Sequence record: PP047752
Length of the DNA stretch: 64,000 bases
DNA from: Escherichia phage KEP2
Reading direction: 5' to 3' (one strand)
Numbering within the stretch: the stretch's first letter is position 1; every line of letters begins with the position of its first letter. The position numbers and the translations under genes are program-made. Below, piece by piece: positions 5,741-64,000 of the stretch. The notes under the pieces were generated by a model. It did not search any database, was not told where the DNA came from, and saw nothing but the letters and a program-made list of their open reading frames with translations.

Positions 5741-6916
5741 ATGGCAGTCGGTGAAATTCAAATTAGTGCCTTGCCACAAGCGGCCTTACCAGTTGATTTA
5801 AGTGATATCTTCCATCTTAAGCAAGGTGTTGAGGATAAAAGATGTACGCTTGAACAGTTGTTAGCACCTCACGCATCTTTGAGGAATAATCCTCATGGTG
5901 TAACCAAATCGCAAGTGGGTCTTGATAATGTTATTAACTCTCTTCAATTAGTTGCAGCTAATAACTTGTCAGACATTGTGAATGTTGCTGAGGCAAGAGC
6001 AAATCTACAAATTATGTCGTCAGAGGAAGTGAATAACTTAATTCAACAACATATTGACGACAAAAGTAACCCACACAATACGACGAAAGCACAGGTCGGT
6101 TTAAGTAATGTTCAGAACTGGACAACATCTAATCTGTACAATGAAGATGCTGATAAGTATGCTACCGCGAGAGCAGTGAATAATTTATACAAAGCTATCC
6201 AAGCATCATATCCAGTAGGGACTATTCATCTATCTGTTAATTCTGCTAACCCAGCCACTTACTTGCTTTGTGGAGGTACTTGGGAGTTAGTTTCTAGAGG
6301 TAGAGCACTAGTTGGTTATGATACAAATTCTAGACCTGTTGGTTCAACGTTTGGTTCTCAGACTGTAGTATTAACAAATAACAATTTACCAGCACATACT
6401 CACTCTATCTATCTAACAGGTGGTGGTCATACACACTCTGCAAGTGTATCTATCTCTAGTTTTGATTATGGTTCAAAGAGTACATCAACTTTTGACTATG
6501 GTACGAAGGCAACTAACAGTGCTGGTGCTCACACTCACACGTTTAGCGGCACGACAAGTAATGATGGTAACCATAACCATAGAGTACCACTGAGGGGTAA
6601 TGATAGAAGTGGGTCAAATGCTATTACTGCATCTGCTTATGCTGGGATTGATAATAATATGTATACTGATTTAGCAGGTGCTCACACCCATAGCTTCTCA
6701 GGCACAACTGCATCATCTGGTGCTCATAGTCATACTGTTGCAATTGGTGCTCATAGCCACACTGTTAATATTGGTTCACACAGTCATACGGGTACTGTTA
6801 CTGTCTCTAACTCTGAACATACACACTCAGGAACATCCGGTTCTGTTGGTGGTGGTCAAGCTTTCAGTGTTGAGCAGCCATCTTTTGTCGTATATGTATG
6901 GCAGAGAACAGCTTAA
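5741..6916 (+). CDS. tail fibre protein with N-terminal tail-fibre repeats and C-terminal HxH repeats
   Basis: Two copies of NPH..TK.QVGL.NV motif (phage tail-fibre repeat); C-terminal run of AHTHS/GAHSHT/HxH motifs typical of metal-binding fibre tips. Confidence 0.7.
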   Translation: MAVGEIQISALPQAALPVDLSDIFHLKQGVEDKRCTLEQLLAPHASLRNNPHGVTKSQVGLDNVINSLQLVAANNLSDIVNVAEARANLQIMSSEEVNNLIQQHIDDKSNPHNTTKAQVGLSNVQNWTTSNLYNEDADKYATARAVNNLYKAIQASYPVGTIHLSVNSANPATYLLCGGTWELVSRGRALVGYDTNSRPVGSTFGSQTVVLTNNNLPAHTHSIYLTGGGHTHSASVSISSFDYGSKSTSTFDYGTKATNSAGAHTHTFSGTTSNDGNHNHRVPLRGNDRSGSNAITASAYAGIDNNMYTDLAGAHTHSFSGTTASSGAHSHTVAIGAHSHTVNIGSHSHTGTVTVSNSEHTHSGTSGSVGGGQAFSVEQPSFVVYVWQRTA

Positions 6917-56961: not shown

Positions 56962-56998
56962 TCGGCGCAACGGGGCAAATAGCCCCAGATACCTTTAT

Positions 56999-57021
56999 AG
57001 CCCCTTAAATGGGGCTTTTTT
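56999..57021 (+). terminator. intrinsic terminator ending the small-gene array
   Basis: AGCCCC-ttaaat-GGGGCT followed by TTTTT; preceded by degenerate cassette-like hairpin GGGGCaaatAGCCCCAGATACC. Confidence 0.55.
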
Positions 57022-57374
57022 ACGTCTTATCAAATCCTATACAATCCTTTTCCTTTCCTTTCCAGAGTCTTACTAGACCTTAAAAGCAATAACTCTATAG
57101 CTTACTCTATAACCTTTTATCAAATCAACTTAAATATAAGCCCATAACCCGAAAGGGAAGGGCAACCGTTTAAACGCTCTATAAAGCTCTATAACAGCCT
57201 TATCAACCTAACTTAAGGGATTGCATTAACTCACCCTTAAAAGCCCTTTATAAAGCTTCCTAGAGCCTTAAAAGAATCTTATAAGGGTGTAAGCTTTATT
57301 ATCTCGTTAGTATCTTGTGAACTACTAAAAAGGGGCTTGTTAGTTACTAAAAAGTATGTTATAGGGGCTATAAA

Positions 57375-57516
57375 GTTACGTAAAAGTAGCTTAAAAGTTA
57401 CGTAAAAGTAGCTTAAAAGTTACGTAAAAGTAGCTTAAAAGTTACGTAAAAGTAGCTTAAAAGTTACGTAAAAGTAGCTTAAAAGTTACGTAAAAGTAGC
57501 TTAAAAGTTACGTAAA
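57375..57516. repeat. 22-bp direct tandem repeat GTTACGTAAAAGTAGCTTAAAA x6 plus partial
   Basis: Six perfect units 57375-57506 and a 10-bp partial; each unit has palindromes TTACGTAA and AGCT. Confidence 0.9.
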
Positions 57517-57573
57517 TGCTAGCCCCCTTAACATTTTCTTAACAATCCCTACATAGTTATGCTTTTAAGGCAC

Positions 57574-58110
57574 TTGTTAGCAACTTGTTAAATCTCTGTT
57601 AAAACCATGTAAAAGCCTTGTAAGAGTCTTTGGCATAGCCTTTAAAGCCCCTGAAAAGCCTTATAAAGAGGTGTCTACATAGTTGGGGTGCAATTACTAG
57701 GGAGAGACTAAAAAGAGCTTATAAGGAGTTATAAAGAGCTTTTAAAAGGGCTATTTAAAAGGTCACTAAGAGGGAAAGGGAACGATAAGAAAAGAGATAG
57801 TGACCATGTTAATAGCTTGTTAAAAAGGTTAAACACTTGTTAGGAACTTGTTAATTATCTTAACAAAATAACTCTTTAAAATTAACTTGTTAGCTCTTGT
57901 TAGTCATCTGTTAAGCCTCTGTAAAGACTATGTATCAACTGTTAAGAAACTGTTACCCTCTTGTTAAAACTGTTAAGAATCTGTTAAGACCTTTGAAGAG
58001 ATGTTAAGAAGATGTATCAACTGTTAAGAGATTGTTAATGATATTTTAAAATTCTGCAAAGGGGATGTTACAGGGATGTTAAGGGCTACCAAGCAGATAT
58101 ACATCTTCTA
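57574..58110. repeat. dense cluster of short direct motifs (C/T)TGTTAA(G/A), more than 20 copies
   Basis: e.g. ACTTGTTAGCAACTTGTTAAATCTCTGTTAAAACC; ATGTATCAACTGTTAAGA occurs twice (~57925 and ~58008); non-coding. Confidence 0.7.
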
Positions 58111-58538
58111 CAGATATTTTTGAGTTCCTTCAAAGACCCTAAAAAATGACTTGACAACTCTATTTTATAAAAATTTTAAAATTCTGAATAATTACCTATA
58201 CAGTCTTTTAAAAATACAGGCATAAACAGGCTTATAAGATACCTTGTTAGTACCGTGTTAGACCTTGTGAGATAAGGTCTTTAAAGATATTCCTGTTAAG
58301 TTTGTTAAAACAGTCTATATAGAGGCTTAGTAATACCTAGTGAACACCTATAGAGGGTAACATAGCTGACATAGAGATTAAGAGGTGTATAGGGGCTTCT
58401 AAGAGGGTGTAGAGGAATGGTTAAGGTGATTGTATAGGTTGTTAAGAAGGCTTGTTAGAGGGCTATTTAGAAGGGCTATACAGAGGGACTATTAAGACCA
58501 CTAGATAGATACTAAGATACTATATAGTACTATATAAC

Positions 58539-58556
58539 TATATATATATATATATA
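58539..58556. repeat. (TA)9 dinucleotide repeat within AT-rich TACTATATA-type sequence
   Basis: TATATATATATATATATA; candidate DNA-unwinding element. Confidence 0.7.
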
Positions 58557-58658
58557 GAGAGTAAGCTTAAGAAGGTTGTTAAGAAGGATAGATATTTTAT
58601 TCACATATGATGGTGACCCAGAGGTTGGGACAACCGATGAAATTTTATAAAAAAATTA

Positions 58659-58691
58659 AAAAGCCCCCAATTAAGGAGGCTCTTAAGATAT
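58659..58691 (-). terminator. intrinsic terminator for the - strand block
   Basis: On - strand: AGCCUCC-uuaauu-GGGGGCU followed by UUUUUAAUUUUUUU. Confidence 0.5.
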
Positions 58692-58692
58692 T

Positions 58693-59286
58693 TTAAATCA
58701 GTGTTTCCAGAACTGTCTTCAGTGATGACTTGGTTGTCTGATAAAAATGAGTAAATCCATTGTTGTTATCGAATACCTGCATCATGATATCATCTCCCTT
58801 GATTGGGTACACTCGGATATCATAGTGGAACCCATTAAATACAGCAGAACCATTACAGAATGAACTGAAATCATCCACTGAGATATACTCCTCATGCCCT
58901 GTGATTTTTATACAGATACCCTTACTCGGTCTCTTAGGGTTAATATCTTCCATCACAGACATATTCTGTCCACCAAGAGATACCATAGTGACCACTTTAC
59001 GATTTTTCTGTCTAAAGTACATCTTAACTTTCTGTAAAGTGTCTTCATAGAACGGATAAGACCTTTCTACAAAGATTCCTTCAAGTGGCTCTTTACCATT
59101 TTCAACTTCTCTGTTATGCCGTACTGCAAAGATAATTTGTTGGAACCAGTCAAGATTTTCTTCGGATAGTGCTTCTCGAATATCATTCCAGTCAAGGACT
59201 AGGTAGTTGCCTTCAACTTCTTTTAAGTTATCTTTTTCCATATCTATCACACCATTATCGTAAAACTTGGTAATCTGGTACTGCAA
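58693..59286 (-). CDS. hypothetical protein
   Basis: 197-aa ORF, last gene of - strand block. Confidence 0.35.
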   Translation of the reverse strand: MQYQITKFYDNGVIDMEKDNLKEVEGNYLVLDWNDIREALSEENLDWFQQIIFAVRHNREVENGKEPLEGIFVERSYPFYEDTLQKVKMYFRQKNRKVVTMVSLGGQNMSVMEDINPKRPSKGICIKITGHEEYISVDDFSSFCNGSAVFNGFHYDIRVYPIKGDDIMMQVFDNNNGFTHFYQTTKSSLKTVLETLI

Positions 59287-59722
59287 ACTTGTTGTTGTTG
59301 TTGTTCTTAATGAGGTCTTCTTCTGTTACTAAGAATGTAAGCCCACATAAGTGTGTGTAGTGGCTATCATACTCAAATATTTTAAGTAAGTATTTATCAT
59401 CATGGTAAACAAATTCTACTACACCTTTTGCAACAATCTTTCCAGTCTTGAAGTCTTTAAGGCGGTATACATTACCAACTTTAGGAACTGTTTTCATCTC
59501 AGGTTCTTTTAGTTTCTCACCAACTTCTACATCACCTAGTAAGTGAGAACCTTCAAAAGCTACATGTTGCATATAAGCCTCTGAGCATTCCCAGATAAAA
59601 CAATGTACAAGAACCTTAGCTGCATGTCTTGAGCAATTCAACTTATCACAAATCTCTTTGTACATTTCGTCTTTAGTTGAGTTGTCAAGCATTGCTTTTT
59701 GGACTACTTCTTTAATTTTCAT
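59255..59722 (-). CDS. hypothetical protein
   Basis: 155-aa ORF. Confidence 0.3.
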   Translation of the reverse strand: MKIKEVVQKAMLDNSTKDEMYKEICDKLNCSRHAAKVLVHCFIWECSEAYMQHVAFEGSHLLGDVEVGEKLKEPEMKTVPKVGNVYRLKDFKTGKIVAKGVVEFVYHDDKYLLKIFEYDSHYTHLCGLTFLVTEEDLIKNNNNNKFAVPDYQVLR

Positions 59723-60140
59723 AAGCTCTCCGAATAACCCTATTAAGCATCTCTAAAGTCAGCTTTCCAGATTCTAAATGTGGCATAACGAGCTTTAAAG
59801 CTTCTTCAACATCATGCACAACATCTATTATACCTTCTTCATAGGCTTCTACAAGGATATCTTTTACGTTTTGTTGGTTAACTTTTTGCGGTATCACTAG
59901 ACGCATATCAAACTCATTTGCTTGAGGATGACTCTTACCACGCCAGAAACCGTCCTTATCAAAGCTTATAAAGTTATCCTCATTAAAATCAATACCACAG
60001 ACCTCAAATTTGTCTAGTACTATGCAGTTGAGAGGGTAAGCATTACTCGCATCATTCATTCCAAGAAATTTAACAGTAGATATATATCTCTGTGTCTTTG
60101 CATCTACAATGTCAAGCTCTTTACCTATAAGCTCTTTCAT
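59712..60140 (-). CDS. hypothetical protein
   Basis: 142-aa ORF. Confidence 0.3.
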   Translation of the reverse strand: MKELIGKELDIVDAKTQRYISTVKFLGMNDASNAYPLNCIVLDKFEVCGIDFNEDNFISFDKDGFWRGKSHPQANEFDMRLVIPQKVNQQNVKDILVEAYEEGIIDVVHDVEEALKLVMPHLESGKLTLEMLNRVIRRAYEN

Positions 60141-60193
60141 TTCGCTACCTTCTAAGTTCCTACAAAGGGGCTATCAAGTAACCCCTCAAGTTA

Positions 60194-60418
60194 CTACTCA
60201 GACTTTTCAGTCTTCTTATCGGATTTCTTACTAGTCTTCTTCTCAGCTTTCTGCTCAGGTTCCTTCTCAGAAGTTTCCTTGATAACCATATCAAGAAGCT
60301 CTGATAGGTCACTCTTCAGCAGAGTAACAGGCTGCTCATTGTAGAAGTTTTTGTCAAGATAAACTTTGAACTCTTCAATAGAAGGAAATCCAAAAATTGG
60401 TACAGGTGTCTTAATCAT
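60194..60418 (-). CDS. small protein with lysine-rich C-terminus
   Basis: C-terminal KAEKKTSKKSDKKTEKSE. Confidence 0.3.
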   Translation of the reverse strand: MIKTPVPIFGFPSIEEFKVYLDKNFYNEQPVTLLKSDLSELLDMVIKETSEKEPEQKAEKKTSKKSDKKTEKSE

Positions 60419-60494
60419 TACTTAGTTTCTCCATAGGCATCTTTTAAGATTGCCTTGTTAATCATTTCAGCGATTGCAAAACGAACACATACAG

Positions 60495-61028
60495 CTATAA
60501 TTGTAGGTTGCATTCTTTACTTACCTCTTCAAGTTTAACCTCAGAGTCCTTAAGTCGTTTCTTATGAACTCTGAATCTCATTAGTGCAATGATGATACCA
60601 ACTAAAGGAACAGCATACAAGTACCAAACTTCATATACCTTTGCAGTAATCTGCGTAATGGTCAAGTCTTGAGCTATGTAACTGATTGCTGATACTGCCA
60701 GTAATGTTGCTAAGAAAAATGCCAGTAACATTACTGTACTTAAACAACCTCTGGCATGGTGTTCATGCTTAATGCACTTATTCTTTTCGTCAACAACCCT
60801 ATTGTAGTCGTTTGTAAAGTCTCTGTAGAAAGCTTTCAAGTATTCTTGACTGTAGCCTTCAAAGCAACCTGTACCGTACCAATAATCACCACCAAAATGT
60901 GCTATGATACCAGTATCTCCGTTTGGTTTAGTTACTCTCAAAGATGTGTGATGACGAGTATCTTGATAGTCTATTTTGTATCTTTCTTCGTAAATCATTT
61001 TCCAATCCCTCTCAATCGTTTGTTCCAC
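60495..61028 (-). CDS. membrane protein
   Basis: Two C-terminal hydrophobic helices (LSTVMLLAFFLATLLAV; VPLVGIIIALM). Confidence 0.35.
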   Translation of the reverse strand: MEQTIERDWKMIYEERYKIDYQDTRHHTSLRVTKPNGDTGIIAHFGGDYWYGTGCFEGYSQEYLKAFYRDFTNDYNRVVDEKNKCIKHEHHARGCLSTVMLLAFFLATLLAVSAISYIAQDLTITQITAKVYEVWYLYAVPLVGIIIALMRFRVHKKRLKDSEVKLEEVSKECNLQL

Positions 61029-61213
61029 TCAAGGTCAACAAGTCTTTGTAGGACTTTCCCTCTAGGTGTTACACCTTTTAAATCTGCATCATAACAATGG
61101 TAAAAGTCACCTTCAGCGTGTTTACCATAGCATTTTCTGATGTTCTGACTCCTACGATACTGCTCTAATAGGGATAGTCTGTAGTAATCTTCAACTGTAG
61201 TTAGTTTTTTCAT
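60995..61213 (-). CDS. hypothetical protein
   Basis: 72-aa ORF. Confidence 0.3.
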   Translation of the reverse strand: MKKLTTVEDYYRLSLLEQYRRSQNIRKCYGKHAEGDFYHCYDADLKGVTPRGKVLQRLVDLEWNKRLRGIGK

Positions 61214-61241
61214 TCTTTCACCACGTATCTTCTCAAGAAAC

Positions 61242-61300
61242 TAAAAAGGGAACTACCTCTCGATAGCTCCCATCATAGTTAATACTGTATATTCGGTCAA
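61242..61300 (-). promoter_or_regulatory. - strand promoter TTGACC-17-TATGAT immediately followed by stem-loop
   Basis: Reverse complement: TTGACC (61295-61300), TATGAT (61272-61277), then GGGAGCUAucgagagguAGUUCCC + U-run (61242-61270). Confidence 0.45.
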
Positions 61301-61878
61301 GAGTATTTTTTAGGCAGTAATGCACTGCGCTTGTTGCTCTCTTCACTCAATAGTGCGATAAATTCATCGCCTTTCCCTTTCCACGGACTGAATGTAGGGA
61401 TGTGCTCTCTGATAGCCTCAATCACTGTTTTCAGGGCATTGTTCTTTAACCACCAATCAGATACTGCTGAAGCTACAATGTAGTAAGCACCATCATCTGT
61501 GAAGATTGGCTCAGAGATACATGGTGAAATCATAGTAGTAATGATAGAACCATTATTCATGTAGTATGTTCTTTTTTCAACCTTGTCAAGCAGTTTATGA
61601 AGGTCTGCAAAGAGACTTACCACCTCTTTATGGTCAATATCTTTTTCAAGATTTGCCCTGTATTTCAATAGTGCAGCATCAACCTCTTTATCATTGAATT
61701 TGAAGTATTGAACTTCTTCATTCACACATACACTAATGTTGTTGGTGTTTATCGTCAATTTGCACAGTTTGACTGGAGAGTTGATGTTGGTCTGGAAAAG
61801 TGCTACACAGCCTTCTACATTCCCGAAATGTTTAACTAATGTAACTTCTGGTTGAATGTGCTCATGCTCTTCTGACAT
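61297..61878 (-). CDS. hypothetical protein
   Basis: 193-aa ORF. Confidence 0.3.
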   Translation of the reverse strand: MSEEHEHIQPEVTLVKHFGNVEGCVALFQTNINSPVKLCKLTINTNNISVCVNEEVQYFKFNDKEVDAALLKYRANLEKDIDHKEVVSLFADLHKLLDKVEKRTYYMNNGSIITTMISPCISEPIFTDDGAYYIVASAVSDWWLKNNALKTVIEAIREHIPTFSPWKGKGDEFIALLSEESNKRSALLPKKYS

Positions 61879-62222
61879 TATAGTTTCCTCATTAAATACT
61901 TTTTAAGTTGTGTGTTAGGTTTCTCAAAAACTTCTATAGAAGATATCTTGACAGATTCACCACGCATACCAGTATGTTTGAAGATATAATACTCCAACAT
62001 ACCTATGTATTTTGCTGGTAAGTCGTACTTGACGTACACTGTTACAGAATCTTCAAATTCAACAACCTTTGTACCATCTTTGTAGTTAAACTCTTTAGGA
62101 TGGTTGTAATTGTCGATGTCGTACATTAAAAAGAGTCTTTTCCGTTGCATGTCAAGCTTATTGGTTAAAGACTCTTTGATATCTGAGAAGTTTTTATAGA
62201 CTATGACATGGAGCTTACTCAT
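61878..62222 (-). CDS. hypothetical protein
   Basis: 114-aa ORF. Confidence 0.3.
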   Translation of the reverse strand: MSKLHVIVYKNFSDIKESLTNKLDMQRKRLFLMYDIDNYNHPKEFNYKDGTKVVEFEDSVTVYVKYDLPAKYIGMLEYYIFKHTGMRGESVKISSIEVFEKPNTQLKKYLMRKL

Positions 62223-62508
62223 CGTTAAACTCTCTGACGAAGAAATAGTTGACTTTGTTATTACCTACCATAAGGTCAAAGCAGGTGTTCTCAAAAGGTT
62301 TGTTGTAGGCATCATATGAAGTGTACGTATCAGCTACTTGTTTAGTATTGAGCTTTTTACTTGATGGATTTAAGAGGCCACCATACAGTTTCTTGATAGC
62401 CTCTTCTACAACAGACCAGATGATTTCGTCAGTAATTTCTTCGTACAGGTCAAGTTCACGCTCTAGTGAGAAGTCACAAATAGGGAAAATAACCTGTACT
62501 TTACTCAT
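62215..62508 (-). CDS. hypothetical protein
   Basis: 97-aa ORF. Confidence 0.3.
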   Translation of the reverse strand: MSKVQVIFPICDFSLERELDLYEEITDEIIWSVVEEAIKKLYGGLLNPSSKKLNTKQVADTYTSYDAYNKPFENTCFDLMVGNNKVNYFFVREFNDE

Positions 62509-62903
62509 TAACGAATGACCTGTGTTACCTGAATAGCTTCAGTTACTGACAAATCACCAACCGTCTCTTCTTTGACGAAGGTGAAGGTCAGTTCAATAGG
62601 CTCCTGCTCTTCTTGCTCAACCGGAATACCGTTAAGCTCATCAAAGATTGATTGAGTAGTCCAGTCTTCTCCACCATCTGGGTAGTGGATGGCATAAAGT
62701 GGAAACTCTAAATTATACCAAGCAAAAACAGGACAACCATCTGCATCATCTCGACATCTGTGGAGATATGTGTTTGTACCTCCAAAATGCAAATGGAGAT
62801 TACCATTCTTCTCAAAGAGAAGAGCATCTTTCAGGTCTAGTTCCTCATTTTCGCTGTAACGGCTGACATCAACTTTAACGTGGATATGACTGTTATTATT
62901 CAT
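62508..62903 (-). CDS. hypothetical protein
   Basis: 131-aa ORF. Confidence 0.3.
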   Translation of the reverse strand: MNNNSHIHVKVDVSRYSENEELDLKDALLFEKNGNLHLHFGGTNTYLHRCRDDADGCPVFAWYNLEFPLYAIHYPDGGEDWTTQSIFDELNGIPVEQEEQEPIELTFTFVKEETVGDLSVTEAIQVTQVIR

Positions 62904-63294
62904 AAAAACCTCTCTCTGCTTGTTCGATTTTTTCTCTTAAAATTTCGCAATGTTGTAAATGGTAGTTAGCTTCTTGTTCATGTGTTGCTAACTGCCTTTC
63001 CAGAACAGTTTTATAGTAACCTGCAAGTTGCTCTTTTGTCAATGGGTGCTCTGAAATAATATCAAGCCCACTTTCACCAAGAGGGTTGAATTGTCCATGT
63101 TCATTGACATTATAAGTCTCAAACTTGAACAGGCCATTGTTCACAGACTCAATAGGTGACAGTTCAACAAGTTCTACAGTAAACCGTGTATACACCTTGT
63201 CACCTCTTGAAACCACATTGTTTCCGACAATGCGTACAAGCGAACCATTACGGGTGTACTTAAAAGTCCCAAAGTCACTAGCCCAAAGTTTCAT
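62896..63294 (-). CDS. hypothetical protein
   Basis: 132-aa ORF. Confidence 0.3.
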   Translation of the reverse strand: MKLWASDFGTFKYTRNGSLVRIVGNNVVSRGDKVYTRFTVELVELSPIESVNNGLFKFETYNVNEHGQFNPLGESGLDIISEHPLTKEQLAGYYKTVLERQLATHEQEANYHLQHCEILREKIEQAERGFYE

Positions 63295-63309
63295 AGTTTT
63301 CTCCTTAGA

Positions 63310-63336
63310 AAATAAAAAAGGCTCCCGAAGGAGCCT
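63310..63336 (-). terminator. intrinsic terminator after endolysin gene
   Basis: On - strand: GGCUCC-uucg-GGAGCC followed by UUUUUUAUUUU. Confidence 0.55.
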
Positions 63337-63345
63337 ATGAAGATA

Positions 63346-63810
63346 TTACTTTGGGTATACACTGTCAAGATAAATGTCAGCTTCCATTCTACGTCTGTTT
63401 TTCAGACCGTTTGAAGTGACCTTCTTGCCTTTGACTGTAACCTTGTTCCACCACTGCATAGCTTCTGCACAACCTACCTTATTACCAGCATTATGGCGCT
63501 TGATAAATGTAGAATCCTGCATAGCTGTGATACCGATGTTGTATGTTTCACTTACAAGTGCATCGAACTCATTCTGAGAAGTTGGAGCCTTGATAGCTTT
63601 ATTCACCGCTGCAACGAACTTTTCAACATCTGCGAGAAGATACTGTTCAGCTTGCTCAGCAGTAATTTTCATACCCATCTTAACAGGTTTTCCGTCAATA
63701 CGGATTGTACCATACCCGATTGTTGGGATTCCGGCAGAGTCTTCGTAAGCCTCTAACTTCAGACCTTCAAAGAACTTAATAGCTTCTAAACCTTTTCTTG
63801 AGAGTTGCAT
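63346..63810 (-). CDS. endolysin, GH24 lysozyme (T4 e-like muramidase)
   Basis: N-terminal EGLKLEAYEDSAGIPTIGYG matches catalytic Glu/Asp region of T4-type lysozymes. Confidence 0.8.
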   Translation of the reverse strand: MQLSRKGLEAIKFFEGLKLEAYEDSAGIPTIGYGTIRIDGKPVKMGMKITAEQAEQYLLADVEKFVAAVNKAIKAPTSQNEFDALVSETYNIGITAMQDSTFIKRHNAGNKVGCAEAMQWWNKVTVKGKKVTSNGLKNRRRMEADIYLDSVYPK

Positions 63811-64000
63811 TATGCCTCCCCTGTTGGGTTAACTGTAACTGTTGCTGCATTAGAAGTAACAGAACCCCCAGCACCAGTAACTACACAAGTGTAGCTTCCT
63901 GCATCAGCAGCAGTTGCACCTTCTTTGGTGTAAGTTGCAGCAGTTGCGTCTGGGATGACTTCCTCACCTTTCTTCCACTGATAACCTGTTGCACCAGTTG
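63810..64000 (-). CDS. partial gene (C-terminal end) encoding Ig-like domain protein
   Basis: Open frame to window edge; translation ...DAGSYTCVVTGAGGSVTSNAATVTVNPTGEA* resembles bacterial Ig-like fold; stop overlaps endolysin start by 1 nt. Confidence 0.4.
   Translation of the reverse strand, partial: TGATGYQWKKGEEVIPDATAATYTKEGATAADAGSYTCVVTGAGGSVTSNAATVTVNPTGEA

What the first reader, a model, noticed from the sequence alone, without database searches (positions are those of the whole stretch)
57375..57516. Perfect 22-bp tandem repeat (x6.5) with palindromic TTACGTAA core
Six identical head-to-tail copies of GTTACGTAAAAGTAGCTTAAAA plus a partial copy. Perfect conservation implies recent expansion or strong selection. 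Each unit carries the 8-bp palindrome TTACGTAA and AGCT, consistent with a dimeric DNA-binding protein site (iteron, centromere-like or terminase binding). It is not CRISPR-like: there are no unique spacers.
Basis: seen in the sequence. Interest (0 to 1): 0.55.

Follow-up and report, generated by a model that had tools for sequence, protein, structure and literature searches.

The report
Expanded repeat beside phage genome end
The perfect 22-bp tandem repeat is real, and it is a freshly expanded version of a highly variable 11-bp-unit minisatellite that lies 3-13 bases from where Felix O1-like phages cut their DNA to make the left genome end, so it is probably an accessory part of the still undefined packaging signal and not an origin, centromere or CRISPR array.

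Summary
Window 57372-57516 holds 6.6 perfect copies of a 22-bp unit (TRF score 290; 0.01 matches expected by chance).

The window is a Felix O1-like phage (Felixounavirus). The array lies in a 1.7-kb ORF-free region between convergent gene blocks, each closed by a terminator. By homology with four records that share the same left end, with an annotated DTR (UAB_69), and with the experimentally sequenced 608-bp DTR of UAB_Phi87, the window's direct terminal repeat is about 57522-58090. The array therefore ends 3-13 bp before the left terminal cut.

Each 22-mer is two 11-bp modules. About 50 related loci carry 3-20 such modules here. Felix O1 has 5 and FO1a has 18, although their upstream flanks are identical. 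The last module and the cut site are conserved. A 15-nt inverted repeat brackets the array, and its right arm contains the cut.

The 8-bp palindrome is not conserved; ACGTAAA is.

Best reading: a recent slippage expansion of a minisatellite at the concatemer junction, analogous to T7's repeat arrays next to its terminal repeat. It is probably a curved or redundant binding scaffold for the packaging machinery, with copy number close to neutral. No binding has been shown. Interest is moderate.

The parts
56999..57024 (+). Intrinsic terminator that closes the rightward gene block. It marks the left edge of the untranscribed junction region.
   Evidence: stem 56999-57016 followed by a T run. The same element is annotated as a terminator in AYO145A.
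57356..57370 (.). Left arm of the inverted repeat that brackets the array (ATGTTATAGGGGCTA). It is part of the conserved upstream element GTATGTTATAGGGGC.
   Evidence: pair I14, 13 of 15 complementary to 57520-57534. Conserved in 28 distinct relatives. It forms the closing stem of the centroid single-strand DNA fold.
57364..57374 (+). First 11-bp module (GGGGCTATAAA), not expanded, shared with relatives.
   Evidence: register tables.
57372..57516 (+). The reported array: six perfect 22-bp units (57375-57506) plus a partial unit. That equals 13 of the 14 modules of 11 bp, with an A4 tract every 11 bp.
   Evidence: It is predicted to be the most curved 150-bp stretch of the window.
57507..57521 (+). 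Terminus-proximal module GTTACGTAAAT plus the 4-nt linker GCTA. This is the conserved part of the array next to the cut.
   Evidence: Kept in 22 of 23 related IMG/VR contigs found with an anchor that does not include it. Variants are GTAACGTAAAA+GTTA (Mooglevirus) and GTATCGTAAAT.
57520..57534 (.). Right arm of the bracketing inverted repeat (TAGCCCCCTTAACAT). It contains the inferred left terminal cut: 57521|57522 in four records, 57519|57520 in UAB_69, and 57529|57530 by the UAB_Phi87 run-off sequence.
57522..58090 (.). Direct terminal repeat (DTR), 569 bp by homology. The right boundary could be 58092 by the UAB_Phi87 and UAB_69 mapping.
   Evidence: Identical terminal duplications of 570, 694 and 592 bp with the same boundary sequences in HP1, NBSal004 and ECP2307. 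H12's record starts at the same left end; its paper reports PhageTerm DTRs. The experimental 608-bp DTR of UAB_Phi87 equals the 614 bp between these boundaries minus 8 plus 2.
57528..57591 (.). Dyad just inside the DTR: TTAACA-N5-TTAACA (57528-57545) facing TTGTTA-N5-TTGTTA (57574-57591). It is a candidate duplex protein-recognition site.
   Evidence: pair I13, 18 nt, 78% complementary. Mostly at least 90% conserved across 33 distinct sequences. It does not fold as single-stranded DNA (z = 0.27).
57575..58082 (+). Same-orientation TGTTAR / CTTGTTA motifs, often 11 bp apart, that fill the DTR.
   Evidence: 26 on the + strand versus 3 on the - strand in the non-coding region. (CTTGTTA occurs 11 times here versus 3 in the other 62 kb; lag-11 identity 0.47).
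58091..58658 (.). Non-coding stretch between the DTR and the first leftward gene. It holds further short repeats and a TA-rich run (58505-58556).
58659..58684 (-). Intrinsic terminator that closes the leftward gene block. It marks the right edge of the junction region.
   Evidence: Annotated as a terminator in AYO145A.

Best explanation
The array is a recently expanded allele of a hypervariable minisatellite built from 11-bp modules. The minisatellite occupies the spacer between the two arms of an inverted repeat at the left boundary of the phage's ~570-bp direct terminal repeat, that is, at the concatemer junction where terminase makes the left-end cut. In virion DNA it occurs once, just inside the right-hand DTR copy.

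Shown: the position relative to the termini (by homology with mapped relatives), the modular 11-bp structure, the unstable copy number, the conservation of the last module and of the cut site, and the bracketing inverted repeat.

Inferred: the conserved elements (ACGTAAAT-GCTA|GCCCCCTTAACA, the inverted-repeat arms, and the TGTTAA arrays inside the DTR) form the packaging and cleavage signal. The upstream modules act as phased A-tract curved DNA and/or redundant low-specificity sites that help the packaging machinery assemble. Their number (3-20) is close to neutral and drifts through replication slippage or unequal recombination in concatemers. The six perfect 22-mers are one such very recent event.
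For: Termini: four records from different submitters begin at GCCCCCTTAACA, and the three that carry both copies have identical duplications of 570, 694 and 592 bp ending at GGGCTACC. UAB_69 has an annotated DTR here. The UAB_Phi87 DTR, mapped with Bal31 and sequenced, matches to within 8 and 2 nt and reproduces the published 608 bp exactly. Metagenomic ~88-kb contigs break at or near this site.

Minisatellite behaviour: about 50 loci carry 3-20 modules. The 11-bp register between GTATGTTATA and the cut is kept in 28 of 33 distinct sequences. Different 22- and 33-bp units were expanded independently in different phages. Felix O1 and FO1a are 100% identical over 344 nt upstream but have 5 and 18 modules.

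Conservation: the terminal module is kept in 22 of 23 contigs found with an unbiased anchor, and the first ~100 bp of the DTR are mostly at least 90% conserved.

The inverted repeat brackets the array and contains the cut. The region lies beyond both flanking terminators, with no Rfam match and promoter-like sites at background level. Curvature is the highest in the 64 kb. T7, a model DTR phage, also has short-repeat arrays directly flanking its 160-bp terminal repeat.
Against: No protein binding or packaging phenotype has been shown for any Felixounavirus junction element. The termini of this particular phage are inferred by homology, not from its reads. A 3-20 module range, even between near-identical phages, suggests the extra copies are dispensable, so a purely neutral array is hard to exclude. 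Felix O1 was reported to lack a recognisable small terminase (PMC3185647), and the terminase genes lie outside this window, so no candidate binder could be examined. Most barcode insertions at the T7 genome ends, which include the analogous arrays, were non-essential (preprint 10.1101/2024.10.10.617714). The 11-bp register is also what unit-wise slippage alone would produce. The curvature calculation used wedge angles recalled from memory.
Confidence: 0.6

Rival explanations
1. The array is a purely neutral minisatellite. The repeat-rich non-coding junction simply tolerates slippage products, and neither the modules nor their number do anything. Only the cut site and sequences inside the DTR matter.
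For: Copy number ranges from 3 to 20 and changes between near-identical phages. DTR length also varies in 11-bp steps, which shows slippage throughout the region. Insertions at the T7 genome ends, where the analogous arrays lie, were mostly tolerated.
Against: No relative has fewer than 3 modules. The module consensus (G-N4-T-W-AAA) and the terminal module persist across two genera. The array is always framed by the same inverted repeat.
Confidence: 0.25
2. The bracketing inverted repeat and the array form a hairpin or cruciform that is used in DTR duplication or concatemer processing, with fold-back priming or a structure-specific nick at the cut in the right arm.
For: The arms 57356-57370 and 57520-57534 pair in the centroid single-strand DNA fold, and the cut lies inside the right arm. 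Hairpin intermediates have been proposed for T7 concatemer processing (my recollection, not checked here).
Against: The fold is only modestly better than shuffles (z = -2.3; 4 of 200 shuffles do as well). The stem is short (13 of 15) with a loop of 40-220 nt. The left arm is degenerate in the Mooglevirus Sf19.
Confidence: 0.07
3. The repeats are iterons of a replication origin, or a partition (centromere-like) site.
For: They are direct repeats of 22 bp in an AT-rich non-coding region (GC 0.33 versus 0.39). A TA-rich run lies 1 kb away.
Against: None of the 10 flanking ORFs has a Rep, Par or any other Pfam domain, and all PHROG matches are of unknown function. This is a virulent phage with a linear DTR genome. 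Copy number is extremely unstable. The position is locked to the terminal cut. GC skew only tracks gene orientation.
Confidence: 0.05
4. The copy number, though not the existence, of the array is an assembly artefact. A 145-nt perfect repeat at a coverage discontinuity (the DTR edge) could have been mis-resolved.
For: The exact two-unit sequence is found in no other assembly. Assemblies do misbehave at this junction; for example, humlepung's record starts with a 63-nt inverted duplication.
Against: Independent genomes carry arrays of equal or greater length at the same place (Si3 and PMBT20 14 modules, FO1a 18, FG1m 20). Assemblers usually collapse perfect repeats and do not inflate them.
Confidence: 0.08

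Closest known systems
T7 short-repeat arrays flanking the 160-bp terminal repeat (called SRL and SRR in the T7 literature, names recalled from memory)
   Same: T7 is also a DTR phage. Arrays of short same-orientation repeats lie directly outside the terminal repeat in the non-coding concatemer junction. This was verified here: the T7 repeat is 160 bp, a 13-bp-period CCTAAAG array follows the left copy at 175-340, and looser copies precede the right copy.
   Different: The phage family and the motif are unrelated. The period is 13 bp, not 11 bp. T7's tight array is on the other side of the repeat. It is not known to vary in copy number. No bracketing inverted repeat containing the cut was seen. 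The function of the T7 arrays is also unresolved.
Small-terminase recognition repeats at pac/cos sites (lambda cosB R sites; SPP1 pacL/pacR with bent DNA), from established knowledge and not tested here
   Same: Phased short repeats and intrinsically curved DNA lie within tens of bp of the terminase cut. This is the mechanism proposed here for the junction.
   Different: No small terminase has been identified in Felix O1-like phages. The genome ends are exact DTRs, not cohesive ends or headful cuts. No binding data exist.
Bacterial VNTR / minisatellite loci generated by slipped-strand mispairing
   Same: Copy number changes in whole units, differs between near-identical genomes, and young copies are identical to each other.
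   Different: This one is anchored to a functional DNA-processing site and framed by conserved elements.
Plasmid and phage iterons
   Same: About 22-bp direct repeats, head to tail.
   Different: There is no adjacent initiator gene, the number is unstable, and the location is at the terminus.

Membership tests
Repeat arrays flanking the terminal repeat at a DTR-phage concatemer junction (T7 type) | The phage packages a genome with short exact direct terminal repeats. | tested here: met
   By homology. Identical 570-694-bp terminal duplications occur in HP1, NBSal004 and ECP2307. UAB_Phi87 has an experimentally mapped 608-bp DTR. This phage's own reads were not tested.
Repeat arrays flanking the terminal repeat at a DTR-phage concatemer junction (T7 type) | An array of short same-orientation repeats lies immediately outside the terminal-repeat boundary, in non-coding DNA. 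| tested here: met
   The array ends at 57516 and the DTR starts at 57520-57530. There is no ORF of 40 aa or more between 57076 and 58693, and terminators lie on both sides. The T7 arrangement was verified.
Repeat arrays flanking the terminal repeat at a DTR-phage concatemer junction (T7 type) | Contribution to concatemer processing or packaging. | not testable with these tools
   Needs genetics or a transduction assay.
Terminase (TerS-type) recognition site | Repeated motifs within tens of bp of the terminase cut. | tested here: met
   The terminal module lies 5 bp from the cut. TTAACA/TGTTAA arrays lie 6-80 bp inside it.
Terminase (TerS-type) recognition site | A cognate small terminase or recognition protein that binds the motif. 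| not testable with these tools
   The terminase genes are outside the window. Felix O1 was reported to have only a TerL homolog.
Iterons of a replication origin | An adjacent initiator (Rep) gene and/or DnaA boxes with a DNA-unwinding element. | tested here: not met
   The 10 flanking ORFs have no Pfam domain and only PHROGs of unknown function. DnaA boxes were not searched for specifically.
Iterons of a replication origin | A stable, conserved set of repeats among close relatives. | tested here: not met
   3-20 modules. Felix O1 has 5 and FO1a has 18.
Partition centromere (parS/parC-like) | Linked parA/parB-type genes. | tested here: not met
   No such domains in the flanking ORFs. Only the flanks were scanned.
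CRISPR array | Repeats separated by unique spacers of similar length. | tested here: not met
   The copies are head to tail with no spacers.
Palindromic operator for a dimeric DNA-binding protein | The dyad symmetry of the core is conserved in orthologous sites. | tested here: not met
   TTACGTAA becomes TAACGTAA or TATCGTAA in Sf19, Michonne, L044 and in many units of Si3, FO1a and FG1m.

The most novel reading that the evidence does not exclude
The inverted-repeat arms, the curved 11-bp-module spacer and the DTR-proximal TGTTAA dyad together form the so far undefined packaging signal of Felix O1-like phages, which lack a recognisable small terminase. In this reading the junction DNA is wrapped or looped so that the left-end cut is placed in the right arm, and module number tunes packaging efficiency or timing, so the locus acts as an evolvable 'rheostat' and not as junk.
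Probability: 0.15. Interest if true: 0.6.

Novelty: new member of a known kind. Interest (0 to 1): 0.35.

Why it matters
Felix O1-like phages are widely used for Salmonella and E. coli typing, biocontrol and therapy, yet their packaging signal is not defined, and Felix O1 was reported to lack a recognisable small terminase. Locating a conserved cut site framed by an inverted repeat, with a hypervariable phased array beside it, gives a concrete and testable candidate for that signal.

There are also practical consequences. The locus is a ready-made strain-typing marker (3-20 modules). It explains why assemblies break or are mis-resolved here. It gives annotators a way to place genome ends at the true termini in the ~250 related records, most of which are opened arbitrarily. 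The finding is still an ordinary kind of feature for a DTR phage, and no function has been demonstrated.

Tried and rejected
- Four of the eight literature searches gave nothing usable. Searches were too broad, one search matched PacBio instead of pacB, and (Felixounavirus plus tandem repeat) found no paper. A ninth query was rejected because one term had fewer than three characters.
- The deposited UAB_Phi87 record does not start at its physical end. The ends had to be taken from the paper's supplement.
- Several record starts close to the region (EF202P1, P54, S19cd, D1-2, JH2, RPN213) are arbitrary openings at gene boundaries or in the non-coding DNA, not termini.
- Rfam found only two sub-threshold chance matches.
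- Promoter-like sites are at background level: 8 found against 8.0 expected.
- GC skew only mirrors gene orientation, so it says nothing about an origin.
- PHROGs and Pfam gave no function for any of the 10 flanking ORFs.
- The DTR-internal dyad does not fold as single-stranded DNA.
- The 11-nt perfect inverted repeat around the right DTR boundary (58007-58017 / 58099-58109) is not kept in ECP2307 or HP1 by eye, so it was not built into the model.
- A strict helical-phase (DNA looping) argument was rejected. 11.0-bp modules drift out of phase with a 10.5-bp helix over the observed size range, and unit-wise slippage alone explains the register.
- My first IMG/VR pattern included GTTACGTAAA and so biased the conservation estimate. 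I repeated the scan with an anchor that lies only inside the DTR.

Full report
**1. Observation**

Window 57375-57506 is six exact head-to-tail copies of GTTACGTAAAAGTAGCTTAAAA, followed by GTTACGTAAA at 57507-57516. Tandem Repeats Finder gives 57372-57516, period 22, 6.6 copies, 100% matches, score 290. The next best array in the window scores 81. Shuffles predict 0.01 matches to the unit even with three mismatches allowed; six are found. TTACGTAA occurs seven times, all within the array. The 22-mer is itself two related 11-mers, GTTACGTAAAA and GTAGCTTAAAA, with a lag-11 identity of 0.73.

**2. Context**

The window is a Felix O1-like myovirus (Felixounavirus). The 1.8 kb around the array matches 256 phage records, the best at 94% (SME50).

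The array lies in a 1.73-kb stretch (56962-58692) between a rightward and a leftward gene block. This stretch has no ORF of 40 aa or more apart from one 50-aa ORF that ends at 57076. Intrinsic terminators close each block, at 56999-57016 on the + strand and 58684-58659 on the - strand (the same elements are annotated in AYO145A). Rfam gives nothing, and sigma-70-like sites are at the shuffle level. The ten flanking ORFs have no Pfam domain and only PHROGs of unknown function.

The whole stretch is AT-rich (GC 0.33 versus 0.39) and periodic at 11 bp. Lag-11 identity is 0.42 overall and 0.47 in the part identified below as the DTR, against 0.26-0.29 in two coding control stretches.

**3. The array abuts the physical end of the genome**

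In a spread listing of the matches, several records begin or end inside this region.

- vB_EcoM_H12, whose paper reports PhageTerm direct terminal repeats (PMC11737134), ends ...GTTACGTAAATGCTA and begins GCCCCCTTAACATT.
- HP1 (Mooglevirus) has annotated 570-bp repeat_regions at both ends. They are identical, start at GCCCCCTTAACATT and end at ...TAAGGGCTACC.
- NBSal004 and ECP2307 carry identical 694-bp and 592-bp duplications with the same two boundary sequences.
- UAB_69 has a feature annotated 'DTR' running from TAGCCCCC... to ...GGGCTACCAA.
- UAB_Phi87's ends were mapped with Bal31 and sequenced by run-off (PMC4837284). Supplementary Figure S1 gives AACATTTTCTTAACAA...GGGCTACCAA. In the UAB_Phi87 sequence (L024, 100% identical to JN225449) my two boundaries are 614 bp apart, and 614 - 8 + 2 = 608, the published length.

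Transferred to the window, the DTR is 57522-58090 (569 bp). The left end is uncertain over 57520-57530 and the right end over 58090-58092. The array's last base (57516) is therefore 3-13 bp from the left terminal cut. In virion DNA the array occurs once, just internal to the right-hand DTR copy. In the concatemer it lies immediately upstream of the single DTR. These termini are inferred by homology; this phage's reads were not available.

**4. It is a hypervariable minisatellite of 11-bp modules**

I laid out the sequence between the conserved element GTATGTTATA and the cut in 11-bp register. I did this for loci from the phage collection, IMG/VR and the metagenome contigs. The module counts are:

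| Locus | Modules |
|---|---|
| L062 | 3 |
| SME50, Sf19 and several others | 4 |
| Felix O1, ECP2307, AYO145A | 5 |
| H12 | 6 |
| L065 | 8 |
| L032 | 9 |
| Si3, PMBT20, this window | 14 |
| FO1a | 18 |
| FG1m | 20 |

Different units were amplified in different lineages. In Salmonella phages the units are GGGGCTTAAAA-GTTACGTAAAA (22 bp) and GGGGCTTAAAA-GTTACTTCAAA-GTAACGTAAAA (33 bp). Here the unit is GTTACGTAAAA-GTAGCTTAAAA.

Felix O1 and FO1a, which belong to the same species, are 100% identical over the 344 nt upstream of the array yet carry 5 and 18 modules. The exact two-unit sequence of this window occurs in no IMG/VR or metagenome contig. The register (length = 3 mod 11) holds in 28 of 33 distinct sequences. 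DTR length itself is quantised in about 11-bp steps across 44 loci: 569/570, 579-582, 590-592, 601-603, 612-614 and so on. The perfect identity of the six copies therefore reflects a very recent slippage or unequal-exchange event, not selection on each copy.

**5. What is conserved**

- The last module plus linker (GTTACGTAAAT GCTA|) is kept in 22 of 23 related IMG/VR contigs retrieved with an anchor that lies wholly inside the DTR. The exception has GTATCGTAAAT.
- Mooglevirus phages Sf19 and Michonne have GTAACGTAAAA GTTA|GCCCCCTTTACA. The conserved core is therefore the asymmetric ACGTAAA, not the 8-bp palindrome.
- The first ~100 bp of the DTR are mostly at least 90% conserved, more than the sequence upstream of the array.
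- A 15-nt inverted repeat, ATGTTATAGGGGCTA (57356-57370) and TAGCCCCCTTAACAT (57520-57534), 13 of 15 complementary, brackets the array exactly. The cut lies inside its right arm.
- Inside the DTR, TTAACA-N5-TTAACA (57528-57545) faces TTGTTA-N5-TTGTTA (57574-57591). TGTTAR motifs then fill the DTR almost entirely in one orientation (26 versus 3), often 11 bp apart.
- As single-stranded DNA, the bracketing repeat forms the closing stem of the centroid fold, but only modestly better than shuffles (z = -2.3). The internal dyad does not fold (z = 0.27).

**6. Physical property**

Each module carries an A4 tract, so the expanded array has 13 A-tracts at 11-bp spacing. A dinucleotide wedge model ranks the array windows as the most curved 150-bp stretches of the 64 kb. 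Their end-to-end/contour ratio is 0.64, the median is 0.96, and the best window elsewhere is 0.75. The wedge angles were recalled from memory, so the ranking is more trustworthy than the absolute values.

**7. Mechanism**

*Shown:* position, modularity, instability, the conserved terminal module and cut site, and the inverted-repeat frame.

*Inferred:* the conserved elements form the cleavage and packaging signal at the concatemer junction. The upstream modules supply curved DNA and/or redundant weak sites that aid assembly of the packaging machinery. Their number is nearly neutral.

T7 provides a checked precedent for the layout. Its terminal repeat is 160 bp, a 13-bp-period CCTAAAG array follows the left copy, and looser copies precede the right copy. 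[quoted passage not shown] That argues for an accessory role at most.

The rivals are:
- a purely neutral array, which is hard to exclude;
- hairpin-based DTR duplication using the inverted repeat, for which the thermodynamic support is weak;
- iterons or a centromere, which lack partner genes, have unstable number and are locked to the terminus;
- a miscounted copy number from assembly, although equally long arrays in independent genomes show that such lengths exist.

**8. Comparison and novelty**

The Felix O1 genome paper lists direct repeats of at least 24 bp but not this locus, and it infers only 'short terminal repeats' (PMC3185647). The UAB_Phi87 paper gives the DTR sequence, and none of the passages I retrieved from it discuss the flanking array. 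A full-text search for Felixounavirus together with 'tandem repeat' found nothing.

The feature belongs to a known kind, namely short-repeat arrays at DTR junctions and slippage-prone minisatellites. It appears to be undescribed for this genus. It adds a specific candidate packaging signal for a phage group in which no small terminase is recognised.

**9. Verdict**

Noticed in passing
window 57522-58090, and the DTRs of 44 related loci: DTR length is quantised in about 11-bp steps (569/570, 579-582, 590-592, 601-603, 612-614, 623, 633...). The terminal repeat itself therefore gains and loses 11-bp modules; for example, there are 2 or 3 copies of TTAACAnTTTC right at the left end.
   Followed up: partly
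window 57354-57521 versus L016 (Si3) and L047 (PMBT20): Three arrays built from different unit types (22-mers here; 33-mers and mixed units in Si3 and PMBT20) have exactly the same total length, 14 modules or 168 nt from GTATGTTATA to the cut. This may be coincidence or a preferred length. Si3 and PMBT20 may share ancestry.
   Followed up: no
window 58007-58017 and 58099-58109: A perfect 11-nt inverted repeat (AGAAGATGTAT / ATACATCTTCT) straddles the right DTR boundary at 58090. By eye, the left arm is not kept in ECP2307 and the right arm is not kept in HP1.
   Followed up: partly
window 58455-58556: A 13-bp repeat (TTAGAGGGCTAT, 3.4 copies) is followed by a TA-rich run (ATATATACT-like, 5.8 copies) in the non-coding stretch between the DTR and the first leftward gene. 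It might be an unwinding element or only low-complexity DNA.
   Followed up: no
L006 (MN850564.1 humlepung) 1-63: The record starts with a 63-nt stretch that is the reverse complement of sequence just downstream. This looks like an assembly artefact at the DTR edge, and it shows that assemblies are unreliable at this junction.
   Followed up: partly
GU169904.1 'Staphylococcus phage SA1' 135296-137086: A 147-kb record labelled as a Staphylococcus phage contains this Felix O1-like junction region at about 88% identity over its full length. That suggests a chimeric or contaminated record.
   Followed up: no
window 57522 onward and 58693-64000: Both gene blocks next to the termini are transcribed towards the genome ends (convergent on the junction). 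This differs from T7, where the early genes at the left end are transcribed inward. The consequences for DNA entry and early expression are unknown.
   Followed up: no
window 6707-6775: 27-bp imperfect tandem repeats lie inside a large ORF (5741-6916). They probably correspond to the repeats that the Felix O1 paper reports within its tail-fibre genes 76 and 77.
   Followed up: no
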